From a virus: a DNA stretch of 64,000 nucleotides. Shown here in pieces: positions 9,853 to 63,660 of the stretch; within the stretch, counting starts at the first letter, position 1; every line of letters begins with the position of its first letter. A model generated the notes under the pieces. It was not told the origin of the DNA. It was given only the letters and a program-made list of their open reading frames with translations, and did not search any database. The DNA is taken from IMG/VR virus record IMGVR_UViG_3300037467_001050, positions 32,001 to 96,000 of that record; one strand, given 5' to 3'. The position numbers and the translations under genes are program-made.

Positions 9853-11322
9853 ATGTCCAACAATGACGACGGCGGGAGCATCTCGCCGGCGACTGAGCTG
9901 CAACGCCGTCGGCGCGCACGCACGTCGCTCATCGGCTTTGCCGAATTCACCCTGGCCAAGTACAAGGCCGATCCCTTCCACTACAAGGTGGCGGAGAAGC
10001 TCGAAGCGGTCGAACGCGGCGAGATCAAGCGCCTGATGATCTTCGCGCCGCCGCGGCACGGCAAGTCCGAGCTGTCGACGCGCCGCTTCCCGGCTTGGTA
10101 CTTGGGTCGGAACCCGACCCACAACATCATCTCGGCCTCATACAACGCCGCGTTTGCCAAGGGCTTCGGCCGCAACGTCCGCGACATCGTCAACCAGGAG
10201 GAGTTCGGCGTCCTGTTCCCCGACGCCCGGGTGCGCGCCGATCTGCGCGCCGCGGATGAATGGGAGCTGGAGCAGGGCGGCCAATACTTCTCAGTGGGTG
10301 TCGGCTCAGGCACAACGGGCCGCGGTGCCAATCTATTTCTCATCGACGATCCAATCAAAGATAGAAAAGAGGCCGACTCCAAGACGTTCCGCGAGGATAT
10401 GTGGAACTGGTACCGAGACGTCGTCTACACCCGTCTCGAAGAAGACGCCCCGATCATCCTCACACTGACCCGGTGGCACTTCGACGACATCGCCGGCCGG
10501 CTTCTCGAGCTGCAGAAAACCGGCAAGGGTGAGCCGTGGGAGGTCCTACTCCTGCCGGCGCTCGCTACGCCGCGCAAGGACCCCGACACCGGAAAGCCCA
10601 TTCTCACGGAGGATGGCACCGTCCCGGGCGATCCGCTCAACCGCAAGCCCTTCGAGCCGCTGTCGCCGTCGCGCTTCTCCTACAAGGCCCTGAAGGACCG
10701 CGAGGAGGTTCTCGGCGAGCGCGGCTGGTCGGCCCTCTACCAGCAGAACCCCATCTCGGAAGAAGGTGGGATGTTCAAGTCCAGCTGGTTCGGGGTGGCC
10801 GACACGCTGCCCGCGCGCCGGCAGCGCGTGCGCGCCTGGGACTTCGGTGCCTCAATCGACGGCGACTGGACCGTCGGCGTCCTGATGAGCCGCGACAGCA
10901 ACGGCGTCTTCTACATCGAGGACGTGCGCCGGCTGCGCGGAACACCCCATGAGGTCGAGAAGCTGGTCTCGGAGACGGCCCGCGACGACGGCAAGGGCGT
11001 CCGGATCCGCATCCCCCAGGATCCGGGTCAGGCTGGTAAGGCTCAGAAGCTCAATTACATGAGGCTGTTGGCCGGCTACCGCGTGGAAGCCGAGCGGATC
11101 AGCGGAGACAAGAAAACCCGCGCCGAAGCCTTCGCGGCCCAAGCGCAGGGCGAGATGGTCAAGATCTACACCGGCGGCGTGGGCGGCTCCCACTGGCGGC
11201 AGGTGTTCTTGGACGAGCTCGCCACATTTCCCCTCGGAACCCACGACGACCAAGTCGACGCAGCCGCCGACGCTTTCAACGCCCTGCTCGGGCGGCGGAA
11301 GGCCGGCATCGCTGACTGGTGA
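9853..11322 (+). CDS. terL: terminase large subunit
   Basis: PPRHGKS Walker A, LIDDP Walker B, AWDFG and HDDQVDA nuclease motifs. Confidence 0.95.
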   Translation: MSNNDDGGSISPATELQRRRRARTSLIGFAEFTLAKYKADPFHYKVAEKLEAVERGEIKRLMIFAPPRHGKSELSTRRFPAWYLGRNPTHNIISASYNAAFAKGFGRNVRDIVNQEEFGVLFPDARVRADLRAADEWELEQGGQYFSVGVGSGTTGRGANLFLIDDPIKDRKEADSKTFREDMWNWYRDVVYTRLEEDAPIILTLTRWHFDDIAGRLLELQKTGKGEPWEVLLLPALATPRKDPDTGKPILTEDGTVPGDPLNRKPFEPLSPSRFSYKALKDREEVLGERGWSALYQQNPISEEGGMFKSSWFGVADTLPARRQRVRAWDFGASIDGDWTVGVLMSRDSNGVFYIEDVRRLRGTPHEVEKLVSETARDDGKGVRIRIPQDPGQAGKAQKLNYMRLLAGYRVEAERISGDKKTRAEAFAAQAQGEMVKIYTGGVGGSHWRQVFLDELATFPLGTHDDQVDAAADAFNALLGRRKAGIADW

Positions 11323-11353: not shown

Positions 11354-12892
11354 ATGGCTCAAACTGCAAATCCCGGCCTGTTCTCGGCTGCCTCCGCCTC
11401 GATGTCGGCACGGCGCGCGCTGATGCGCGCGGTCTACGGCGGCACAGAGACCCTGCGCGCCGCACGGGAAACCTACCTGCCGCGCTACGAGAACGAGAGC
11501 CCGACCCGCTACGAGACCCGGCTCGCCGCTGCCACGTCGCTGAACAAGCTCAGGGAGGCCGTCGACGCGGCTTCCGCGAAGCCGTTCAAGACGATGATCA
11601 AGTTGATCAACAACACCGACGCCGATCTCGATCAGTGGGTCCGTGACATCGATCTGACCGGCAACCATCTGCACATCTTCGCCCACCAGCACTTCAACGA
11701 CTCGCTGCTGATGGGGCAGGGGCACATCCTGGTGGATCACCCGACCACCTCGAACATGCCGAACCTCGGCGCTCAGCTCGCCTCAGGCGTTCGGCCGTTC
11801 ATGAAGTACATCCGCGACGACGACCTGCGCGCGGCCTACAGCGAGAACGTCGGCGGCGACATCCAGGTGACGCACGTCCGCATCTTCTCGACCCGCGTGG
11901 AGCGCGAGCCCGGCACCTTCAAGGAGAAGGTCTGGAACCAGATCTACGTGATCGAGAAGGAGGTCGGCGCCAACGCGGGCGTCGTGCAGGTCTGGGAGCA
12001 GGACGCGCAGGCCGGCGGCGACAGCTGGGATCTCATCTCCGAGAGCCCGCTCACCATGCCGGAAGTGCCGTTCGTGACGCTCTACGCGGGCGAGAAGGAG
12101 GGCGACTTCATCACCCGCCCGATCTTCCTCGACTTGGCGCACAAACAGGTGGAGCACTACCAGAGCTCGGCCGACCAGCGCTCGATCCTGTCCGCGGCGC
12201 GCTTCCCCATGCTCGCCGCCTCCGGCATTGAGTTCGACGAGGAGGAGATCTCGAAGTTCACGGTCGGCCCCTACAAGGCGCTGTTCTCCCCCGATCCGCA
12301 GGGCCGCTACTACTACGTCGAGCCGGCCGGACGGGCGATCAAGTCTGGCGCGGACGACCTCGCCGCCATGGAAATCCAGATGGACATGATGTCCCTCAAT
12401 CCCGTGGTCGGCACGCACCGGCAGTACGTGCCCGCCAACGAGCGCGACATCGCCGAGACGCGGGTGCATTCGGTGGTCCACGATCTGGCGCTGTCCGAGA
12501 AGGACGCGCTGGAGCGCGCGATCGGCTTCATGGGCACCTGGGTCAACCGGGACTTCTCGAACGTGGGCGTCGGCCTCAACTCCGACTTCACGAACACGAA
12601 GGACAAGATGATCCAGATGGGCGTCTTGTTGAACGCCTTCACCTCGAAGGCGATCTCGCTCGAGACCTTCCTGGAGCAGGCGCGCCGCCTCGATCTCGTG
12701 GACGACGAGTTCGACGTGAACGCCGAGGTCCAGCGGCTGGCCGCCGCCAACGCGGCGCTCGCGGACGAGGAGGATCCCAACGTCGACAACACCGGCCCGG
12801 TCGCCGGCTCGGCCTCCGACCCGGTACGTGCTTCGACCACGGCCCCGGTGGACTTCCCGAACGGCCGGACCCGCCCTAGATCTCAGATCTGA
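11354..12892 (+). CDS. portal protein (DUF4055-like)
   Basis: Follows terL; 512 aa; YLPRYENE...RYETRL pattern. Confidence 0.85.
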   Translation: MAQTANPGLFSAASASMSARRALMRAVYGGTETLRAARETYLPRYENESPTRYETRLAAATSLNKLREAVDAASAKPFKTMIKLINNTDADLDQWVRDIDLTGNHLHIFAHQHFNDSLLMGQGHILVDHPTTSNMPNLGAQLASGVRPFMKYIRDDDLRAAYSENVGGDIQVTHVRIFSTRVEREPGTFKEKVWNQIYVIEKEVGANAGVVQVWEQDAQAGGDSWDLISESPLTMPEVPFVTLYAGEKEGDFITRPIFLDLAHKQVEHYQSSADQRSILSAARFPMLAASGIEFDEEEISKFTVGPYKALFSPDPQGRYYYVEPAGRAIKSGADDLAAMEIQMDMMSLNPVVGTHRQYVPANERDIAETRVHSVVHDLALSEKDALERAIGFMGTWVNRDFSNVGVGLNSDFTNTKDKMIQMGVLLNAFTSKAISLETFLEQARRLDLVDDEFDVNAEVQRLAAANAALADEEDPNVDNTGPVAGSASDPVRASTTAPVDFPNGRTRPRSQI

Positions 12893-13489: not shown

Positions 13490-13581
13490 TGGAGCGTAGC
13501 TCAGTTGGTTAGAGCGCTGGCTTACCCCCGGTCTAACGGGGACGCCGGAGGCCACAGGTTCGAGCCCTGTCGCACCATCCA
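13490..13581 (+). ncRNA. tRNA-like RNA, Asp-type body with a 15-nt hairpin insertion in the anticodon loop
   Basis: D arm GCTC/GAGC, stem CTGGC/GCCGG, T arm ACAGG-TTCGAGC-CCTGT, TCCA end, 22-nt loop. Confidence 0.8.
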
Positions 13582-13779: not shown

Positions 13780-14349
13780 TTGACCACGTACAGCATTTTC
13801 GATCACGGCTCTTGGGAGTCCTACATCAAGCCCGATAGCTTCGGGTCCATCCGACAGATCGGAACCGGGATCGACTGGTACGACTACCGGCAGAATGCCG
13901 CGAACTTCCACGGTGGCGTTCTTGTCACCCTGATGCAGGATTATGCGAACCCGGACGGCTTCCTGTCGGCGGCGCCAAACACCGATGTGTCGATGGTGTC
14001 CCCCTTCGGACGACTGATCGAGATCTTGGACTACGCTGGCTCCACACCTTCCGGTCCCAACAGCGATCTGGCCAACGCTCAGGTCGTCATCAGCGGCAAT
14101 ACCGCGACGTTCACGAAGCCTTACACCCTGACCTCTCGCACGGTTGTGAACCGCATGACCGACGCTGAGATGTACGCCGCCTACATGGCCGACCAGCTGC
14201 AGCCGCTGCGGTCTCGCCTCACAGGGACCGCCGTGCTGCTGACGAGCTTCACGGCACAGAGCGGGACCTCACAGTTCAGCCTGATCAAGGCGGCCTTCGC
14301 CAACCTGTTCGGTGCAGCTCGCGCCGAGACGCTGACAGCGGCCCCGTAG
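13780..14349 (+). CDS. hypothetical protein inside the RNA island, tail-fibre-assembly-like C-terminus
   Basis: 189 aa, TTG start after GGAG; helical C-terminus resembles 31428 protein by eye. Confidence 0.6.
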   Translation: MTTYSIFDHGSWESYIKPDSFGSIRQIGTGIDWYDYRQNAANFHGGVLVTLMQDYANPDGFLSAAPNTDVSMVSPFGRLIEILDYAGSTPSGPNSDLANAQVVISGNTATFTKPYTLTSRTVVNRMTDAEMYAAYMADQLQPLRSRLTGTAVLLTSFTAQSGTSQFSLIKAAFANLFGAARAETLTAAP

Positions 14350-14649: not shown

Positions 14650-14738
14650 GACGACGTGGTGGCTGAGAGGCTGAAGGCACCACAGAAATGGGGCACGGCC
14701 TGCGGGTCGTCGGGGGTTCAAATCCCTCCCACGTCGTC
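14650..14738 (+). ncRNA. type II tRNA-like RNA with truncated anticodon arm, 10-bp acceptor helix and no adjacent CCA
   Basis: GACGACGTGG/CCACGTCGTC; D arm; variable arm ACGGCC/GGTCGT; T arm GGGGG-TTCAAAT-CCCTC. Confidence 0.7.
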
Positions 14739-14747
14739 GTTTCCATG

Positions 14748-14824
14748 CCCGGTGTAGCTCAGTCTGGTAGAGCATGTGGTTCATGCCCACGGAGCCGCTG
14801 GTTCAAATCCAGCCACCGGCACCA
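14748..14824 (+). tRNA. tRNA(CAT), atypical (C1-C72 mismatch, G37)
   Basis: Cloverleaf, TGTGG-TT CAT GC-CCACG, ACCA end; identity (Met, fMet or Ile2) unresolved. Confidence 0.8.
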
Positions 14825-14941
14825 ACTTTCGAGGCGTGGACCCCTCGGGACCTCTCCGGTCCTAAGGCCTCGATCCCACCACGGTCGTGCTCGAACCGTG
14901 GTCCCTGCGCATGCGGGATACGATGAAGGGAAGGGGTGTCC

Positions 14942-15051
14942 GGGAGGGCATGAGGGCGGAGAGCCCCATCGGGCGCGTCGAGCTGAGCGTGCTCAGCTTC
15001 ACCGGCCCGATGCCTTTTGGCTTGGCGGTGAAAATCCAGCCCCTCCCACCA
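14942..15051 (+). ncRNA. 110-nt tRNA-like RNA with a long extended central arm
   Basis: GGGAGGG/CCCTCCC plus ACCA; GGGC/GCCC; ATCGGGC/GCCCGAT capped by AGCTGAG-CGTG-CTCAGCT; GGTGAAAATCC T-loop-like end. Confidence 0.6.
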
Positions 15052-15056
15052 GTTTC

Positions 15057-15140
15057 GAGTGAGATGCCCGGGTGGACGGGCGGGAGGCTGTAACCCTCCT
15101 GGCTATGCCGTGGTGGGTTCGAGCCCTGCCTCACTCACCA
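15057..15140 (+). tRNA. trnY: tRNA-Tyr(GTA)
   Basis: GAGTGAG/CTCACTC-ACCA, GGAGG-CT GTA AC-CCTCC, long variable arm. Confidence 0.88.
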
Positions 15141-15165: not shown

Positions 15166-15387
15166 ATGGCCACCATCAGCACCACCGTCCATAAGCTCTT
15201 CGTCTCCGACATCACCTCGATCGTCGTGACCGACATCGTCGAGCAGGAGGACGGCTCGTTCGTTCGCGCCGTGCGCTTCTATGGCGACGATGACGCCGGC
15301 AACAAGGACCAGCTCATCGTCGAGGTGAAGGTCACTGCCGCCACCAAGGCGGGCGTTCAGATCCCAGTTCCAGCCTCGGGTTTCTGA
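15166..15387 (+). CDS. small beta-rich hypothetical protein
   Basis: GAGG RBS, phage-like codon usage. Confidence 0.7.
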   Translation: MATISTTVHKLFVSDITSIVVTDIVEQEDGSFVRAVRFYGDDDAGNKDQLIVEVKVTAATKAGVQIPVPASGF

Positions 15388-15578
15388 GGCTCATTCAATC
15401 CCCATCGCGCTCCCGGCTCATCCCCGGTTGAGCGCGATCGCGACGGCCCCAGCCTGCAGCATCCCCGGCACAAGACGGGCAGGGATACCAAAGAGCGCGC
15501 CCCCGCACCTCGCGCCGCCGTCCATCGATCGCGAACCGGCTCCAAGACCGCGTCGCGTCGGCCCATAGGCCGCCACTG

Positions 15579-15608
15579 AGCCCCGGCTTCGCGCCGGGGC
15601 TTTTTTCT
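15579..15608 (+). terminator. intrinsic terminator before the scaffold gene
   Basis: AGCCCCGGC/GCCGGGGCT followed by a T run. Confidence 0.8.
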
Positions 15609-15626: not shown

Positions 15627-16559
15627 ATGCCTGATCGTATTTCCGGGATGGAAATGGCACTTCACGCAATTGTCACCGACATCAATACTGTTCCCGAAGC
15701 ACTCCGCACCGAATACACCGAGAAGGACGGGAAGTTCTTCCTCAATGTAGAGCCGGTCGACGGGTTCAAGCTCGAGAACGTGGATGGGCTCGTCAACGCC
15801 CTGAGCGCCGAGCGCACCCTCAAGGACCGAGCCGAAGCTGCTCTCAAGCAGTTCAAGGACATCGATCCGAAGACCGCGCGCTCCGCCATCGAGGCGATCA
15901 CCGCCTACGGTGACCTCACCCCGCAGCAGGTCCAGGCCCTCCAAGAGGAGGTCGCCAATCTGCGCGCCATCGACCCGACCAAGGAAGCCGGCAAGCTCGC
16001 CGAGGCCCAGGTCAGCGCTGCGGTCGCCGCCGCCAAGGCTGAAGCCGAGCGCGTGTTCGGCACCGAGAAGACCACGCTCGCAGAGCAGCTCAACGGCCTC
16101 ACGGCGCTCAACGAGGGCCTGAAGGGTCAGCTCAAGGATCTGCTCGTCGGCAATCAGGTGAAGGCGGAAATCGCCCGCCTGAAGGTCGTGCCCGGCCTCG
16201 AGCCGGCCGCCGAGATGCTCGCCTCCCAGTCGATCCGCACGGTCGAGAAGGACAACGCCTTCCAGGTCGTGGTCATCGACAAGGACGGCAACCCGCGCAT
16301 GAAGCTCGGCGAGAACAACTCGCTCGTGCCGTTCACGGTCACGGACCTGATGGACGAGCTCAAGAAGACCACCCCCGGCCTCTTCCAGGCGGAAGACAAG
16401 GGCGGTGTTGGCATCCAGCCCGGGCGTCACGCTCCGGGCACCGGGGGCATCTCGAACCCCTGGTCGAAGGAGGCCTGGAACCAGACGGAGCAAGCCAAGC
16501 TCCGGCTCTCGAACCCCACCCTAGCCGCTCAGCTCAAGGCCCAGGCCGGCGTCTCCTGA
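15627..16559 (+). CDS. capsid scaffold protein (start may be 15648 or 15654)
   Basis: Directly before the capsid gene; coiled-coil; NPWSKE...NQTEQ tail. Confidence 0.8.
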   Translation: MPDRISGMEMALHAIVTDINTVPEALRTEYTEKDGKFFLNVEPVDGFKLENVDGLVNALSAERTLKDRAEAALKQFKDIDPKTARSAIEAITAYGDLTPQQVQALQEEVANLRAIDPTKEAGKLAEAQVSAAVAAAKAEAERVFGTEKTTLAEQLNGLTALNEGLKGQLKDLLVGNQVKAEIARLKVVPGLEPAAEMLASQSIRTVEKDNAFQVVVIDKDGNPRMKLGENNSLVPFTVTDLMDELKKTTPGLFQAEDKGGVGIQPGRHAPGTGGISNPWSKEAWNQTEQAKLRLSNPTLAAQLKAQAGVS

Positions 16560-27763: not shown

Positions 27764-28875
27764 TGGGCGCGATCGGCTTTCTCCCGGCCACCGCGCCGCT
27801 CTCGGCCGAGCAGCTCGCGGTCGGCGACAAGCGCTTCGATCGGCTCGACGGGGGCAATCGCAGCCTGCACGTCTTCCCAAACGCGCTCATCAACTCGAGC
27901 TTCGACCATTGGCAGCGCGGCAACGGGCCGTTTGCTTTGACTGGCGGTGGCAGCATTTACGGACCGGACAGGTGGCGCCTGTTTAACGTCGGACCGAACG
28001 GTTCCGTGACGATCACGCGCCAGCCGCTTTCATTCGGCGACTGGCCGTCTCAGAGCCGCCTATCCGTGATCTTCGGTGGCTCGGGGAACACGGCGACGGC
28101 TGATGGGATCGTATTTCAGCAACCGATCGAGGGCGTGGACACCTTCGCCGGCAAGCGCGTGGTTGTTCGCGGCGGGATCCGTTTAGTCTCCGGCGCGGCG
28201 GGAAGCAAAGTCTCTGTTGAACTGGTGCAGAATTTCGGCACCGGAGGCTCCGCTTCGGTGTATACCGACGCTGGTCGTGTCGCTCTTAGTGGCGTGTTAA
28301 CGCCATTTGCTGCGATTGTTGATGTGCCGTCGATGGCCGGAAAGGTCATCGGCTCGGCCGGAGATTTCCTGGGCCTGCAATTCTGGTGTTCTTCCGGATC
28401 TGACTATGCTGCCCGCACCGGAAATCTCGGTTTTCAGGCAATCACCGTTCAGCTCGTCGACGTCGAGGTGAAGGAGGTCAAACCCGGCTACGGCGACCAG
28501 TATCCGGGGTTTGAGCGAGTTCCACGTGAGACGGACTACGATCGCTGCCTGAGGTTCTATGAGCAATCGTGGCTCACTGAAGTTGATATCGTGGGACTGA
28601 ATACTGCGGTAGGATTTGGTACGGTTCACCCGACCGGAGCTTGTCGTATCGCGGTGCGATACAGGAAGCGCAAGCGCATCAACCCTGTACTCGCTATTGC
28701 CGACACTAATCTGATACGCGGAGCCGTCTCCATCTACTACACCAGCAGTAACAGTTGGGTCGGCGGCCAGGGATACTCCCTGCTGTCCGGTTCGGCGGAA
28801 GGCTTTTATTTTGGCCATAACAACCCCAGCTCGATCGAGACGCAGGGCCACTACATCGCAAGCGCGGATTACTAA
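27763..28875 (+). CDS. receptor-binding/tail fibre protein 1
   Basis: NALINSSFDHWQRG ... YDRCLRFY; lower-GC 3' end. Confidence 0.75.
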   Translation: MGAIGFLPATAPLSAEQLAVGDKRFDRLDGGNRSLHVFPNALINSSFDHWQRGNGPFALTGGGSIYGPDRWRLFNVGPNGSVTITRQPLSFGDWPSQSRLSVIFGGSGNTATADGIVFQQPIEGVDTFAGKRVVVRGGIRLVSGAAGSKVSVELVQNFGTGGSASVYTDAGRVALSGVLTPFAAIVDVPSMAGKVIGSAGDFLGLQFWCSSGSDYAARTGNLGFQAITVQLVDVEVKEVKPGYGDQYPGFERVPRETDYDRCLRFYEQSWLTEVDIVGLNTAVGFGTVHPTGACRIAVRYRKRKRINPVLAIADTNLIRGAVSIYYTSSNSWVGGQGYSLLSGSAEGFYFGHNNPSSIETQGHYIASADY

Positions 28876-62428: not shown

Positions 62429-62821
62429 TCACTCCAGGATGCACCGCCACTCGGGCGGCAGGATGCAGTTGTCGGACGCGCCACGGAACAGCGGCGCGAT
62501 CTGGTCATGGGTGTAGCCGGCAAGCCCGGTACCGATCGGGGTCACCTTGAACAGCAGGTTCGGATGGCTCTCTGCGAAGAGCAGGAAGCGGACGACATGC
62601 CACTCGATCTCCCACAATGGGAGGGTAGTCAGTGGGCCGGTCCGGCCTCCGCGCTTGGTCGGGATGGCGTAGCTGAAGCCCTGAAGGCCCTCGTCCTGCC
62701 CGTAGATTGCCCCGTGGTTCTGGACAGCGAAAAGGGCAGCGCCCTTGCCGTGTCTCCCGTGGGGCTTGTTCGAGCCGAAGACGAATATGTCGCGTCCGAC
62801 GTGCCCGTAGTCGGAGTTCAC
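62429..62821 (-). CDS. A1S_2505-like phage protein (macrodomain-related candidate)
   Basis: IFVFGSN, HGKGAA, SYAIPT, FKVTPIGTGLAGY. Confidence 0.8.
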   Translation of the reverse strand: MNSDYGHVGRDIFVFGSNKPHGRHGKGAALFAVQNHGAIYGQDEGLQGFSYAIPTKRGGRTGPLTTLPLWEIEWHVVRFLLFAESHPNLLFKVTPIGTGLAGYTHDQIAPLFRGASDNCILPPEWRCILE

Positions 62822-63660
62822 TGGACGACGCCGACTGTCGCTTCCTCGGTTTCAGGGTTGGCGGCGTCGAACACCACCGCTACCCGGTTCTTCACCGTCA
62901 CGAATGGCGGCATCTCGAGGCAGGCCACATCCGAGCGCATCAGCTTGGCGCCAGGCTCAGGCCGGAACTTCTCCGGGATCGCAGCCCGCTCCTCCTCCGT
63001 CAGCTCCCGCTCGCCTGAAACGCGCCGCAGGTAGGTCCCGCGCTTGAAGAAGACGGGATAGGCATCGAAGTCGACACCGGCCTCTCTGAGCATCGCGCGC
63101 ATGCCATCGACCGAAACACCGTGCAGCTGCTTCGCCGAGAAGTGGTGAAAGGCCGCCATGCTGACGGCGTTGCGGGTCGCATCGAACTCGCGCCACAGGA
63201 AGGCGTTCGCACCTTCCTCGCGGCTCGGCAGGTTGAAGACGCGGGCATCGAAGTGCGGCAGGCGACTGGCGTAGGCAGCGAACTCGGGGTCGTGGAAGGT
63301 TGCCACTGTCCGGCCGAATGACGCGGTCGCCAACCCGGCGAGCACCGAGCACAGCTTCTGCACCTTGGCGTCGAAGAACATCTGCGAGCCCGGCACGTCG
63401 GCAGGAACGTGCCAGATCAACGAGATCTCGTCGGACTGGGTGTAGCCGAGCCGCGCGCCTGCCTCCCTGATCAGGTGGCGGGTGGTCTCCCGCATGGCGA
63501 ATGACATGCGCTCGTCGAAGGGCCGGCGCATCCCGCGCGTGAACCGCGAGAAGCCGCGCCCATCGATGCGGGCGTAGACGGGCAGGTGCGGGTCGAGGCG
63601 GCGGCCGGTCTCGACGGCCTCGTACCCCTTCAGTCGATCCCCAAACGGATCCTTGCTCAC
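62818..63660 (-). CDS. tRNA-His guanylyltransferase-like protein (Thg1-like, 3'-5' polymerase)
   Basis: ARIDGRGFS, YTQSDEISL, HFDARVF, FLWREFDATRN, FKRGT. Confidence 0.9.
   Translation of the reverse strand: MSKDPFGDRLKGYEAVETGRRLDPHLPVYARIDGRGFSRFTRGMRRPFDERMSFAMRETTRHLIREAGARLGYTQSDEISLIWHVPADVPGSQMFFDAKVQKLCSVLAGLATASFGRTVATFHDPEFAAYASRLPHFDARVFNLPSREEGANAFLWREFDATRNAVSMAAFHHFSAKQLHGVSVDGMRAMLREAGVDFDAYPVFFKRGTYLRRVSGERELTEEERAAIPEKFRPEPGAKLMRSDVACLEMPPFVTVKNRVAVVFDAANPETEEATVGVVQ

What the first reader, a model, noticed from the sequence alone, without database searches (positions are those of the whole stretch)
14942..15051. 110-nt CCA-ending RNA that is tRNA-shaped but not a tRNA
Seen: perfect 7-bp acceptor plus ACCA, a D-like hairpin GGGC-GGAGA-GCCC, a 7-bp helix, an internal loop, a second 7-bp helix capped by CGTG, a GCC-TTTT-GGC mini arm and an imperfect T arm with GGTGAAAATCC. 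It sits 5 nt before tRNA-Tyr. Inference: a tmRNA/Y-RNA-style tRNA mimic of a new family. The apical GTG (His) together with GTC in the first mimic and the real GTA tRNA would all be GUN (queuosine-family) triplets, the class cut by colicin E5, but a GTG in a tetraloop could be chance.
Basis: partly seen in the sequence, partly recalled or inferred. Interest (0 to 1): 0.75.

Follow-up and report, generated by a model that had tools for sequence, protein, structure and literature searches.

The report
Anticodon-less tyrosine-tRNA look-alike in phage
A 123-kb soil phage carries a 110-base gene descended from a tyrosine tRNA whose codon-reading loop is replaced by a long closed helix, so it cannot decode; whether it is a working tRNA decoy or a dying gene copy is open.

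Summary
Window 14942-15051 (+) folds as described: a perfect 7-bp acceptor stem plus ACCA, a small D-like hairpin, a 7-bp helix carrying a 30-nt closed extension, a 3-bp mini arm and an imperfect T arm. It ends 5 nt before tRNA-Tyr(GTA).

It matches no Rfam family (tRNA, tRNA-Sec, tmRNA, YrlA and the rest) even at E<=10, and ARAGORN misses it.

It is not a new tmRNA- or Y-RNA-style family. It is a derivative of the unusual class II tRNA-Tyr lineage carried by this phage group (BDU-MI-1-like Bradyrhizobium/Methylobacterium phages):
- It shares C8, extra bases before the D stem, the GGGC/GCCC D stem, A73 and an almost identical GCC-loop-GGC variable arm.
- A model built from four of those Tyr genes hits it at 27.6 bits, E 0.001.

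With a 4-nt apical loop it cannot decode. I found no homolog in about 140 related loci, 18 whole relatives or 201 host-family genomes, so there is no covariation evidence. No expression data could be obtained.

Best reading (about 45%) is a processed, non-decoding tRNA-Tyr mimic, one of three anticodon-altered tRNA bodies in this island. The main rival (about 38%) is a relic made redundant by the cell-type tRNA-Tyr next door.

Notes from this scan report sealed-anticodon tRNA mimics in other phages, in different gene contexts.

The parts
14942..15051 (+). Whole 110-nt tRNA-Tyr-derived, anticodon-less tRNA-like gene
   Evidence: Sequence. Fold energy -57.4 kcal/mol, z -2.88. Pair probabilities. 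The tRNA-Tyr model R2 scores it at 27.6 bits, E 0.001. No Rfam family matches.
14942..14948 (+). Acceptor stem, 5' strand (GGGAGGG)
   Evidence: Seven Watson-Crick pairs with 15041-15047. Pair probabilities are 0.8-1.0 for six pairs and 0.38 for the innermost, which competes with the T stem.
14949..14953 (+). 5-nt linker (CATGA) in place of the usual 2 nt; it starts with C8
   Evidence: C8 and an over-long linker are shared with family Tyr genes L088 (CACA) and L030.
14954..14966 (+). D arm: GGGC stem, 5-nt loop GGAGA, GCCC
   Evidence: Pair probabilities 0.93-0.94. Among 108 distinct tRNAs, the GGGC...GCCC D arm occurs only in 4 family-type tRNA-Tyr genes. The loop is 3 nt shorter than in those genes.
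14968..14974 (+). Basal 7-bp helix of the anticodon arm, 5' strand (pairs with 15005-15011)
   Evidence: Pair probabilities 0.68-0.96.
14975..15004 (+). 30-nt closed extension where the 7-nt anticodon loop should be: 2x2 internal loop, 2 bp, C/C mismatch, 8-bp helix, CGUG loop
   Evidence: Pair probabilities 0.86-0.98. It is not a repeated element in the genome. No bulge-helix-bulge motif is present (read from sequence).
15005..15011 (+). Basal 7-bp helix, 3' strand
15012..15023 (+). 12-nt class II variable mini arm: GCC, TTTT, GGC, then TT
   Evidence: Pair probabilities 0.72-0.77. It is nearly identical to the variable arm of the tRNA-Tyr gene L018:10142-10226 (GCC-TTA-GGC-TGT).
15024..15040 (+). 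Degenerate T arm: 4 bp with a bulged A at 15038, and loop TGAAAAT (T54 and A58 kept, positions 55 and 56 changed)
   Evidence: Pair probability about 0.45. The 3' strand CCAGC equals that of L030 Tyr. G55 is shared with the L002 and L018 Tyr genes.
15041..15051 (+). Acceptor stem 3' strand (CCCTCCC), discriminator A73 and encoded CCA
   Evidence: ACCA is shared with all family Tyr genes.
15052..15056 (+). 5-nt spacer to the next gene
15057..15140 (+). Neighbouring decoding tRNA-Tyr(GTA), cell-type class II
   Evidence: ARAGORN. It is 77-80% identical to cellular tRNA genes in 20 of 61 host-family genomes. It has a different D arm from the phage-family lineage.
15578..15602 (+). Intrinsic-terminator-like hairpin plus T run, closing the tRNA/small-ORF unit before the head scaffolding gene
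   Evidence: The scaffolding protein gene is at 15627-16559.

Best explanation
Shown:
- The element is a gene descended from the class II tRNA-Tyr lineage that this phage group carries after its portal gene.
- It keeps the tRNA topology: acceptor stem, A73, encoded CCA, D stem, variable mini arm and a T-arm remnant.
- The 7-nt anticodon loop is replaced by a 30-nt closed helical extension ending in a 4-nt loop. It therefore cannot read a codon.
- A second tRNA-Tyr(GTA), of cell type, lies 5 nt downstream and can do the decoding.

Inferred from established tRNA processing, not shown here:
- It is transcribed with the neighbouring tRNAs.
- RNase P cuts it at G14942. Its 3' end forms when RNase P cuts the downstream tRNA-Tyr and exonucleases trim the 5-nt trailer back to the CCA.
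- The product would be a stable RNA of about 110 nt.

Proposed:
- It works as a non-decoding tRNA-Tyr look-alike.
- It would offer the acceptor end and the Tyr-type variable arm to a protein that recognises tRNA-Tyr, without offering a cleavable or decodable anticodon loop.
- The likeliest target is a host tRNA-targeting defence nuclease. The phage's own RNA enzymes are an alternative target.
- It is one of three anticodon-altered tRNA bodies in this island.
For: Descent from tRNA-Tyr:
- The single-sequence model R1 finds the relatives' tRNA-Tyr genes as its best non-self hits (L088:2274-2358, E 0.0047; L030:9506-9592).
- Model R2, built from four family Tyr genes, hits the element at 27.6 bits, E 0.001.
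- In pairwise ranking, Tyr genes take ranks 1, 2, 6, 7 and 8 of 107 tRNAs.
- The GGGC/GCCC D arm occurs in only 4 of 108 tRNAs, all of them family Tyr genes. C8 occurs in 9 of 108, including all five family Tyr genes.
- The variable-plus-T region has 22 of 31 bases matching L018:10142-10226, including the GCC-loop-GGC arm.

Non-decoding:
- The apical loop is 4 nt and the arm is stably closed.

Not chance:
-.

Setting:
- It lies in a non-coding tRNA island between the portal gene and the scaffold gene, with a terminator after the unit.
- Two further tRNA bodies with altered anticodon arms lie at 13490-13581 and 14652-14738.
- Every helix except the T arm is free of mismatches.
- The phage alone among 11 sampled relatives has a Thg1-like gene, and it is one of two with RtcB.

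Precedent:
- Phage tRNAs neutralise tRNA-targeting defences. Examples are PARIS (PMC11464382), Retron-Eco7 PtuAB, which cuts the tRNA-Tyr variable loop (PMC12673091), and anticodon-loop variants (PMC10264068).
Against: - No homolog exists in anything I could search, so there is no covariation and no sign of selection.
- The elbow is damaged: the D loop is cut to 5 nt, C56 is changed to A, and the T stem has a bulge. Many tRNA-binding proteins, and RNase P, use the elbow.
- A redundant functional tRNA-Tyr next door is the setting in which an old copy is expected to decay.
- No partner protein is identified. The flanking ORFs have no known family.
Confidence: 0.45

Rival explanations
1. It is a relic. 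After the phage gained a cell-type tRNA-Tyr, the older phage-lineage copy became redundant. A palindrome-forming insertion inactivated it, for example by template switching at the anticodon hairpin, and it is now drifting without function.
For: - It is a singleton, absent from all relatives, which keep intact Tyr genes.
- It carries several degenerative changes outside the anticodon arm: a shortened D loop, a bulged T stem and loss of C56.
- A working tRNA-Tyr lies 5 nt downstream.
- Three mismatched layers in the extension could be decay of a once-perfect palindrome.
Against: - All 21 pairs of the acceptor, D, basal anticodon and variable helices are intact. Only loops and the T arm are altered.
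- Three of the island's tRNA bodies are hit specifically in the anticodon arm, which random decay does not predict.
- The extension is a clean, stable helix rather than scattered damage.
Confidence: 0.38
2. It is a pre-tRNA with an intervening sequence. A nuclease removes the 30-nt extension and the phage RtcB ligase seals the ends, giving a working tRNA.
For: The phage encodes RtcB, which is the splicing ligase of archaea and eukaryotes. Three island genes carry changes in the anticodon arm.
Against: - No bulge-helix-bulge motif can be drawn around the extension (read from sequence).
- The genome has no EndA-type splicing endonuclease.
- At 30 nt the insert is far too short for a group I intron.
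- No contiguous 23-nt excision gives a Tyr (GUA) loop. The only products with U33 have anticodon CAC and C37 (my reading).
- ARAGORN with introns of 0-80 nt finds nothing.
Confidence: 0.05
3. It is the founding member of a new tmRNA- or Y-RNA-like class of tRNA mimic, unrelated to ordinary tRNA genes.
For: No Rfam family matches. A long helix in place of the anticodon arm recalls helix P2 of tmRNA.
Against: - Specific shared features with tRNA-Tyr genes show descent from a tRNA.
- It has no G3-U70, no tag reading frame and no pseudoknots, and ARAGORN calls no tmRNA.
- YrlA has the reverse topology, with its ends at the Ro-binding stem. The phage has no TROVE/Ro60 gene.
- No second member exists.
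Confidence: 0.03
4. It is a chance fold in GC-rich spacer DNA.
For: A perfect 7-bp stem plus NCCA occurs 54 times in the genome. The neighbouring 117-nt spacer is unstructured.
Against: - The Tyr model hits it at E 0.001.
- The fold has z -2.88.
- Placing the 3' end 5 nt before a tRNA has a probability of about 1.3%.
- It shares lineage-specific D-arm and variable-arm sequence with the family Tyr genes.
Confidence: 0.02

Closest known systems
Class II tRNA-Tyr(GUA) genes of BDU-MI-1-like Bradyrhizobium/Methylobacterium phages (L018:10142-10226, L088:2274-2358, L030:9506-9592, L002:8573-8656, L010:8875-8960)
   Same: - 7-bp acceptor stem, A73 and encoded CCA.
- C8 and a GGGC/GCCC D stem, with extra bases before the D stem (L088, L030).
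- C26 (L018) and a 12-15-nt variable arm, GCC-loop-GGC in L018.
- G55 in the T loop (L002, L018).
- Position after the portal gene.
   Different: - No 7-nt loop and no GUA anticodon; a 30-nt closed extension stands in its place.
- The anticodon stem is 7 bp.
- The D loop is 5 nt rather than 8.
- The T stem has lost one base and C56 is changed to A.
Phage tRNAs that neutralise tRNA-targeting defences (T5-like tRNA-Lys against PARIS, PMC11464382; SP15 tRNA-Tyr against Retron-Eco7 PtuAB, PMC12673091; anticodon-loop variants, PMC10264068)
   Same: A phage-encoded tRNA body of the targeted type, here Tyr, sitting in a tRNA cluster. Its proposed role is to blunt a host tRNase.
   Different: The known cases are decoding tRNAs that replace the cleaved host tRNA. 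This RNA cannot decode, so it could act only by binding, and no defence system is identified here.
tRNA-like domain of tmRNA with helix P2
   Same: An acceptor stem with CCA and a reduced D region, with a long helix where the anticodon arm would be.
   Different: It has no G3-U70, no messenger part and no pseudoknots, and it is only 110 nt. ARAGORN and Rfam do not call it.
T4 RNAC and RNAD, small stable RNAs encoded in the T4 tRNA region (PMC3014915)
   Same: Non-tRNA small RNAs made from a phage tRNA gene cluster, with function unknown.
   Different: Any relationship is untested.
Engineered 'tRNA scaffold' RNAs, in which a foreign hairpin is inserted in place of the anticodon loop (own knowledge: Ponchon and Dardel, Nat Methods 2007)
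   Same: The same architecture: a tRNA body carrying a helix in the anticodon arm. In bacteria that design gives correct processing and high stability.
   Different: Those are man-made and keep an intact elbow. Here the elbow is degraded and the cargo helix has no known ligand.
Sealed-anticodon tRNA mimics noted by this scan in other large phages (notes e1-5361260, e1-4045518, e1-5770567, e1-5345864; unchecked AI notes)
   Same: tRNA-shaped, CCA-ending phage genes whose anticodon loop is closed into a hairpin.
   Different: - Those lie beside Pth2-like genes or a phage GluRS and have short caps. This phage has no PTH2 or Pth gene.
- Here the arm is much longer.
- Here the body is Tyr-type.

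Membership tests
Canonical tRNA (Rfam RF00005) | 7-bp acceptor stem, discriminator base and 3' CCA | tested here: met
   14942-14948 pairs with 15041-15047 and is followed by ACCA.
Canonical tRNA (Rfam RF00005) | 5-bp anticodon stem with a 7-nt loop carrying U33 and a 3-nt anticodon | tested here: not met
   The arm is a 7-bp helix plus a 30-nt closed extension ending in the 4-nt loop CGUG.
Canonical tRNA (Rfam RF00005) | D loop and T loop able to form the elbow (G18 G19 with psi55 C56; 5-bp T stem) | tested here: not met
   The D loop is 5 nt. The T loop is TGAAAAT, with G55 and A56. The T stem is 4 bp with a bulge, at pair probability about 0.45.
Canonical tRNA (Rfam RF00005) | Score at or above the family's gathering threshold (29 bits) | tested here: not met
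   No tRNA-clan hit at E<=10, even on a 127-nt search. ARAGORN is negative.
Phage-group class II tRNA-Tyr lineage (model R2) | Body signature: C8, GGGC/GCCC D stem, A73, 12-15-nt variable arm | tested here: met
   R2 scores it at 27.6 bits, E 0.001.
Phage-group class II tRNA-Tyr lineage (model R2) | GUA anticodon in a 7-nt loop (decoding function) | tested here: not met
   Absent. It is therefore a derivative of the lineage, not a working member.
tmRNA | G3-U70 in the acceptor stem, a tag reading frame and pseudoknots | tested here: not met
   Pair 3:70 is G-C. There is no room for a reading frame in 110 nt. ARAGORN's tmRNA search and the Rfam tmRNA models are negative.
Y RNA / YrlA (RF02553) | 5' and 3' ends forming the Ro-binding stem, with a tRNA-like module closed by a loop, and an associated Ro60 (TROVE) gene | tested here: not met
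   The topology is that of a normal tRNA. No YrlA hit falls on the element. The genome has no TROVE gene.
Intron-containing pre-tRNA (archaeal type) | Bulge-helix-bulge motif at the exon-intron borders and a splicing endonuclease | tested here: not met
   No such motif can be drawn (structure). There is no PF01974 gene. ARAGORN's intron mode is negative.
Aminoacylatable tRNA-Tyr (TyrRS substrate) | A73, the anticodon bases G34 and U35, and a long variable arm (bacterial identity set; own knowledge) | not testable with these tools
   A73 and the variable arm are present, and the anticodon is absent. Charging needs an enzyme assay.
T4 RNAC/RNAD-type stable RNAs of tRNA clusters | A discrete stable non-tRNA transcript processed out of a tRNA operon | not tested
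The existence of RNAC and RNAD is taken from PMC3014915.

The most novel reading that the evidence does not exclude
The RNA is a phage-made decoy. It would be an uncleavable tRNA-Tyr body that binds and titrates a host tRNA-targeting defence nuclease, or another tRNA-Tyr-recognising factor, while the cell-type tRNA-Tyr next door does the decoding. With the Asp-like and Ser-like sealed tRNA bodies, RtcB and the Thg1-like enzyme, it would form an RNA-based counter-defence kit. No RNA decoy acting against tRNA-directed immunity turned up in the papers I searched.
Probability: 0.2. Interest if true: 0.8.

Novelty: new variant of a known kind. Interest (0 to 1): 0.5.

Why it matters
Phage tRNAs are now understood partly as replacements for host tRNAs destroyed by defence nucleases. 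A tRNA body that keeps its identity end but has its anticodon arm closed cannot replace anything. If it is functional, it points to a second strategy, RNA mimicry of the nuclease's target.

This phage offers a compact test case:
- three differently sealed tRNA bodies;
- a matching decoding tRNA-Tyr;
- RtcB and a Thg1-like enzyme.

If it is only a relic, it still records how a phage swaps its own tRNA-Tyr lineage for a cell-type copy. It also shows that standard tRNA finders miss both the relic and the unusual Tyr genes of its relatives.

Tried and rejected
Known families
- Rfam at gathering and at E<=10: nothing on the element.
- ARAGORN tRNA, tmRNA and intron modes: nothing.

Homolog searches, all empty for the element
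- An exact 25-mer in viral contigs.
- blastn and nhmmer against the related loci then fetched.
- Model R1 against 60 related loci and the window, 18 whole relatives' records and 4 host-type genomes.
- DNA against 201 host-family genomes gave only 20-45-nt chance pieces.
- The phage and plasmid collections hold no close relative. The best cultured relative is Bradyrhizobium phage BDU-MI-1, with 55% portal identity.
- The flanking ORFs and the Thg1-like protein have no relatives in viral contigs.
- The portal protein as a single query found nothing in metagenome contigs.

Tools not available
The closest portal relatives, P0002 and P0003 at 62-63% identity, could therefore not be inspected.

Ideas rejected
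- A repeated palindromic element: the hairpin is unique in the genome.
- A spliced intron (see rivals).
- A Pth2-type cassette as noted in other phages: no PTH2 or Pth gene here.
- A structured RNA in the 117-nt spacer 14825-14941: z -0.96.

Other points
- R2 with filters off gave a poorer, different alignment (14.4 bits), and I set it aside.
- Comparing the Ser-like gene with the L018 Ser genes was uninformative.
- A bare count of 7-bp stems plus NCCA is too noisy to find such elements.

Full report
Setting. The window is bases 32001-96000 of a 122,894-bp IMG/VR virus record that CheckV rates complete. GC content is about 64%. The large terminase (9853-11322) and a DUF4055 portal (11354-12892) lie just upstream, and the head scaffolding gene (15627-16559) lies just downstream. 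Portal relatives reach at most 62-63% identity. They come from Methylobacterium and Bradyrhizobium prophages and soil viromes, and the nearest cultured phage is Bradyrhizobium phage BDU-MI-1 at 55%. Between portal and scaffold lies a tRNA island:
- a tRNA body with 15 extra bases in the anticodon arm (13490-13581);
- tRNA-Trp;
- an ORF with no known family;
- a structured spacer;
- a Ser-type body with a shortened anticodon loop (14652-14738);
- a CAT tRNA;
- a 117-nt unstructured spacer;
- the 110-nt element;
- tRNA-Tyr(GTA);
- a 73-codon ORF and a terminator-like hairpin.

The observation. The minimum-energy fold is the cloverleaf-like structure with a long central arm. Its energy is -57.4 kcal/mol, z -2.88 against dinucleotide shuffles. 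Pair probabilities are 0.7-1.0 for nearly all pairs outside the T arm (the innermost acceptor pair is 0.38, competing with the T stem), and about 0.45 for the T arm. The same fold appears when 341 nt of context are folded. A perfect 7-bp stem followed by NCCA is not rare in this GC-rich DNA, with 54 in the genome. One ending within 10 nt of one of the six predicted tRNAs has a chance of about 1.3%. Minor corrections: the apical helix has 8 pairs including a G-U, five bases precede the D stem, and the T stem has a bulged A.

Known families. No Rfam family reaches even E 10 on the element, whether 64 kb, 3.4 kb or only 127 nt is searched. That covers tRNA, tRNA-Sec, tmRNA, YrlA, mascRNA and the recently described bacterial tRNA mimics that Rfam holds. 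ARAGORN finds no tRNA, tmRNA or intron-bearing tRNA there. A weak YrlA hit at 14707-14774 is an artefact: it joins the T arm of one tRNA to the D arm of the next.

What it descends from. A covariance model made from the element alone (R1) finds two class II tRNA-Tyr genes of relatives as its best non-self hits on the + strand, L088:2274-2358 (E 0.0047) and L030:9506-9592. These genes form an unusual lineage:
- C at position 8, and two of them have extra bases before the D stem;
- a GGGC/GCCC D stem;
- an A-C mismatch at the top of the anticodon stem;
- in two of them G55 and an 8-nt T loop.
ARAGORN missed several of them.

A model of four of these genes (R2) recovers a sixth member, L018:10142-10226. 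It hits the 110-nt element at 27.6 bits, E 0.001 in 1.46 Mb, despite the 30-nt insertion. Among 108 distinct tRNAs from the window and related loci, the GGGC...GCCC D arm occurs only in four family Tyr genes. C8 occurs in nine, including all five family Tyr genes. The element has both. In a simple pairwise ranking, Tyr genes take ranks 1, 2, 6, 7 and 8 of 107.

The closest match is the L018 gene, from a Methylobacterium provirus. It shares the same C after the D stem. Its variable arm reads GCC, loop, GGC, against GCC-TTTT-GGC in the element. Over the variable-plus-T region, 22 of 31 bases match. The T-stem 3' strand equals that of L030, and the bulged A is what loss of one base from the 5' strand would leave. 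The T loop differs from that of L018 by the C56-to-A change and by being one base shorter. I conclude, with good confidence, that the element is a derivative of this phage-group tRNA-Tyr lineage. The tRNA-Tyr(GTA) 5 nt downstream belongs to a different, cell-type lineage. It is 77-80% identical to cellular tRNA genes in 20 of 61 host-family genomes, whereas the element finds nothing comparable there.

What it cannot be. With a 4-nt apical loop on a closed 20-layer arm, it cannot decode. It is not a tmRNA: no G3-U70, no reading frame and no pseudoknots. It is not a Y RNA: the topology is wrong and the phage has no Ro60 gene. It is unlikely to be a pre-tRNA with a removable insert:
- no bulge-helix-bulge motif can be drawn;
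- there is no EndA-type endonuclease;
- no single excision restores a Tyr loop.
The phage does encode RtcB. The hairpin is not a repeated element.

No relatives. The element has no homolog in about 140 fetched loci, 18 complete or partial relatives' records, 4 host-type genomes or 201 host-family genomes. Its flanking ORFs also have no relatives in viral contigs. There is therefore no covariation and no transcript evidence.

How it most likely works. Three points favour a retained, processed, non-decoding mimic:
- The damage is selective. All 21 pairs of the acceptor, D, basal anticodon and variable helices are intact, and the new arm is a clean, stable helix.
- It is one of three island genes altered specifically in the anticodon arm.
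- The decoding job has been handed to a neighbouring gene of another lineage.
The encoded CCA, the 5-nt spacer and the tRNA-like acceptor/T stack are what RNase P and 3' trimming need. This is established for bacterial tRNA operons but inferred here.

A tRNA-Tyr body without an anticodon loop could occupy a protein that recognises tRNA-Tyr by its acceptor end and long variable arm. Retron-Eco7 PtuAB cuts tRNA-Tyr in the variable loop and is neutralised by a phage tRNA-Tyr (PMC12673091). Other phage tRNAs neutralise PARIS (PMC11464382) or escape anticodon nucleases (PMC10264068). This phage is unusual among the 11 relatives searched. It alone has a Thg1-like gene and it is one of two with RtcB. 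It also has a ProQ/FinO-domain protein. These links are circumstantial.

The main rival is plain decay of a redundant copy. That view is supported by the degraded elbow, the singleton status and the working tRNA-Tyr next door. I put the mimic at about 0.45 and the relic at about 0.38.

Relation to other notes of this scan. Other readers flagged the island and its two sibling genes. A follow-up on 13490-13581 reached a similar 'sealed look-alike, single copy' verdict. Notes on other phage genomes describe sealed-anticodon tRNA mimics beside Pth2-like genes or a phage GluRS. This phage has neither PTH2 nor Pth, so it is not that cassette. Those notes do suggest that closed-anticodon tRNA bodies recur in phages. 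They are unchecked leads, not evidence.

Verdict. This is a real tRNA-Tyr-derived, anticodon-less tRNA-like gene, a new variant of a known kind (tRNA-derived look-alike or pseudo-tRNA). Its function is unproven. Interest is moderate, and would be high if the decoy role were shown.

Noticed in passing
L002:8573-8656, L030:9506-9592, L018:10142-10226 (also L088:2274-2358, L010:8875-8960): The relatives carry a non-canonical class II tRNA-Tyr(GUA) lineage. Its marks are C8, extra bases before the D stem, an A-C mismatch at pair 27:43, and G55 and/or an 8-nt T loop. In the first scan ARAGORN missed the genes in L002, L030 and L018.
   Followed up: partly
window 16434-16531 (-): ARAGORN calls a 98-nt tRNA-Ala(GGC) on the minus strand inside the head scaffolding gene (15627-16559, phrog_206). 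It is almost certainly a false positive.
   Followed up: partly
window 14707-14774: A weak Rfam YrlA hit (25 bits against a threshold of 69) arises from the T arm of the Ser-like gene lying next to the D arm of the CAT tRNA. It is not a Y RNA.
   Followed up: yes
window 15057-15140: The decoding tRNA-Tyr(GTA) itself falls below the Rfam tRNA threshold; its best clan hit is tRNA-Sec at 25.5 bits. It is still 77-80% identical to cellular tRNA genes of the host family.
   Followed up: partly
window 62818-63660 (-); G000 about 111237-112319 (-); G000 28445-28747 (-): The phage encodes a Thg1-like protein, RtcB and a ProQ/FinO-domain protein. Among 11 relatives searched, none has Thg1 and one has RtcB.
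   Followed up: partly
related loci L003-L082, about 1.1-1.3 kb after the portal gene: tRNA-Asn(GUU) is the tRNA most often kept after the portal in relatives, in about 22 loci. Tyr(GUA) recurs too, so tRNAs of the GUN (queuosine) group are prominent in this phage group. This phage has no tRNA-Asn.
   Followed up: no
window 13490-13581 and 14652-14738: These are two sibling tRNA bodies with altered anticodon arms. One has 15 extra bases forming an added hairpin. The other has a 6-nt loop, for which ARAGORN reports a 2-base anticodon. Both keep canonical T arms, unlike the 110-nt element.
   Followed up: no
window 13780-14349 and 15166-15387: Two ORFs inside the tRNA island have no Pfam or PHROG family and no relatives in viral contigs. 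The first also gave no usable protein-atlas hit.
   Followed up: partly
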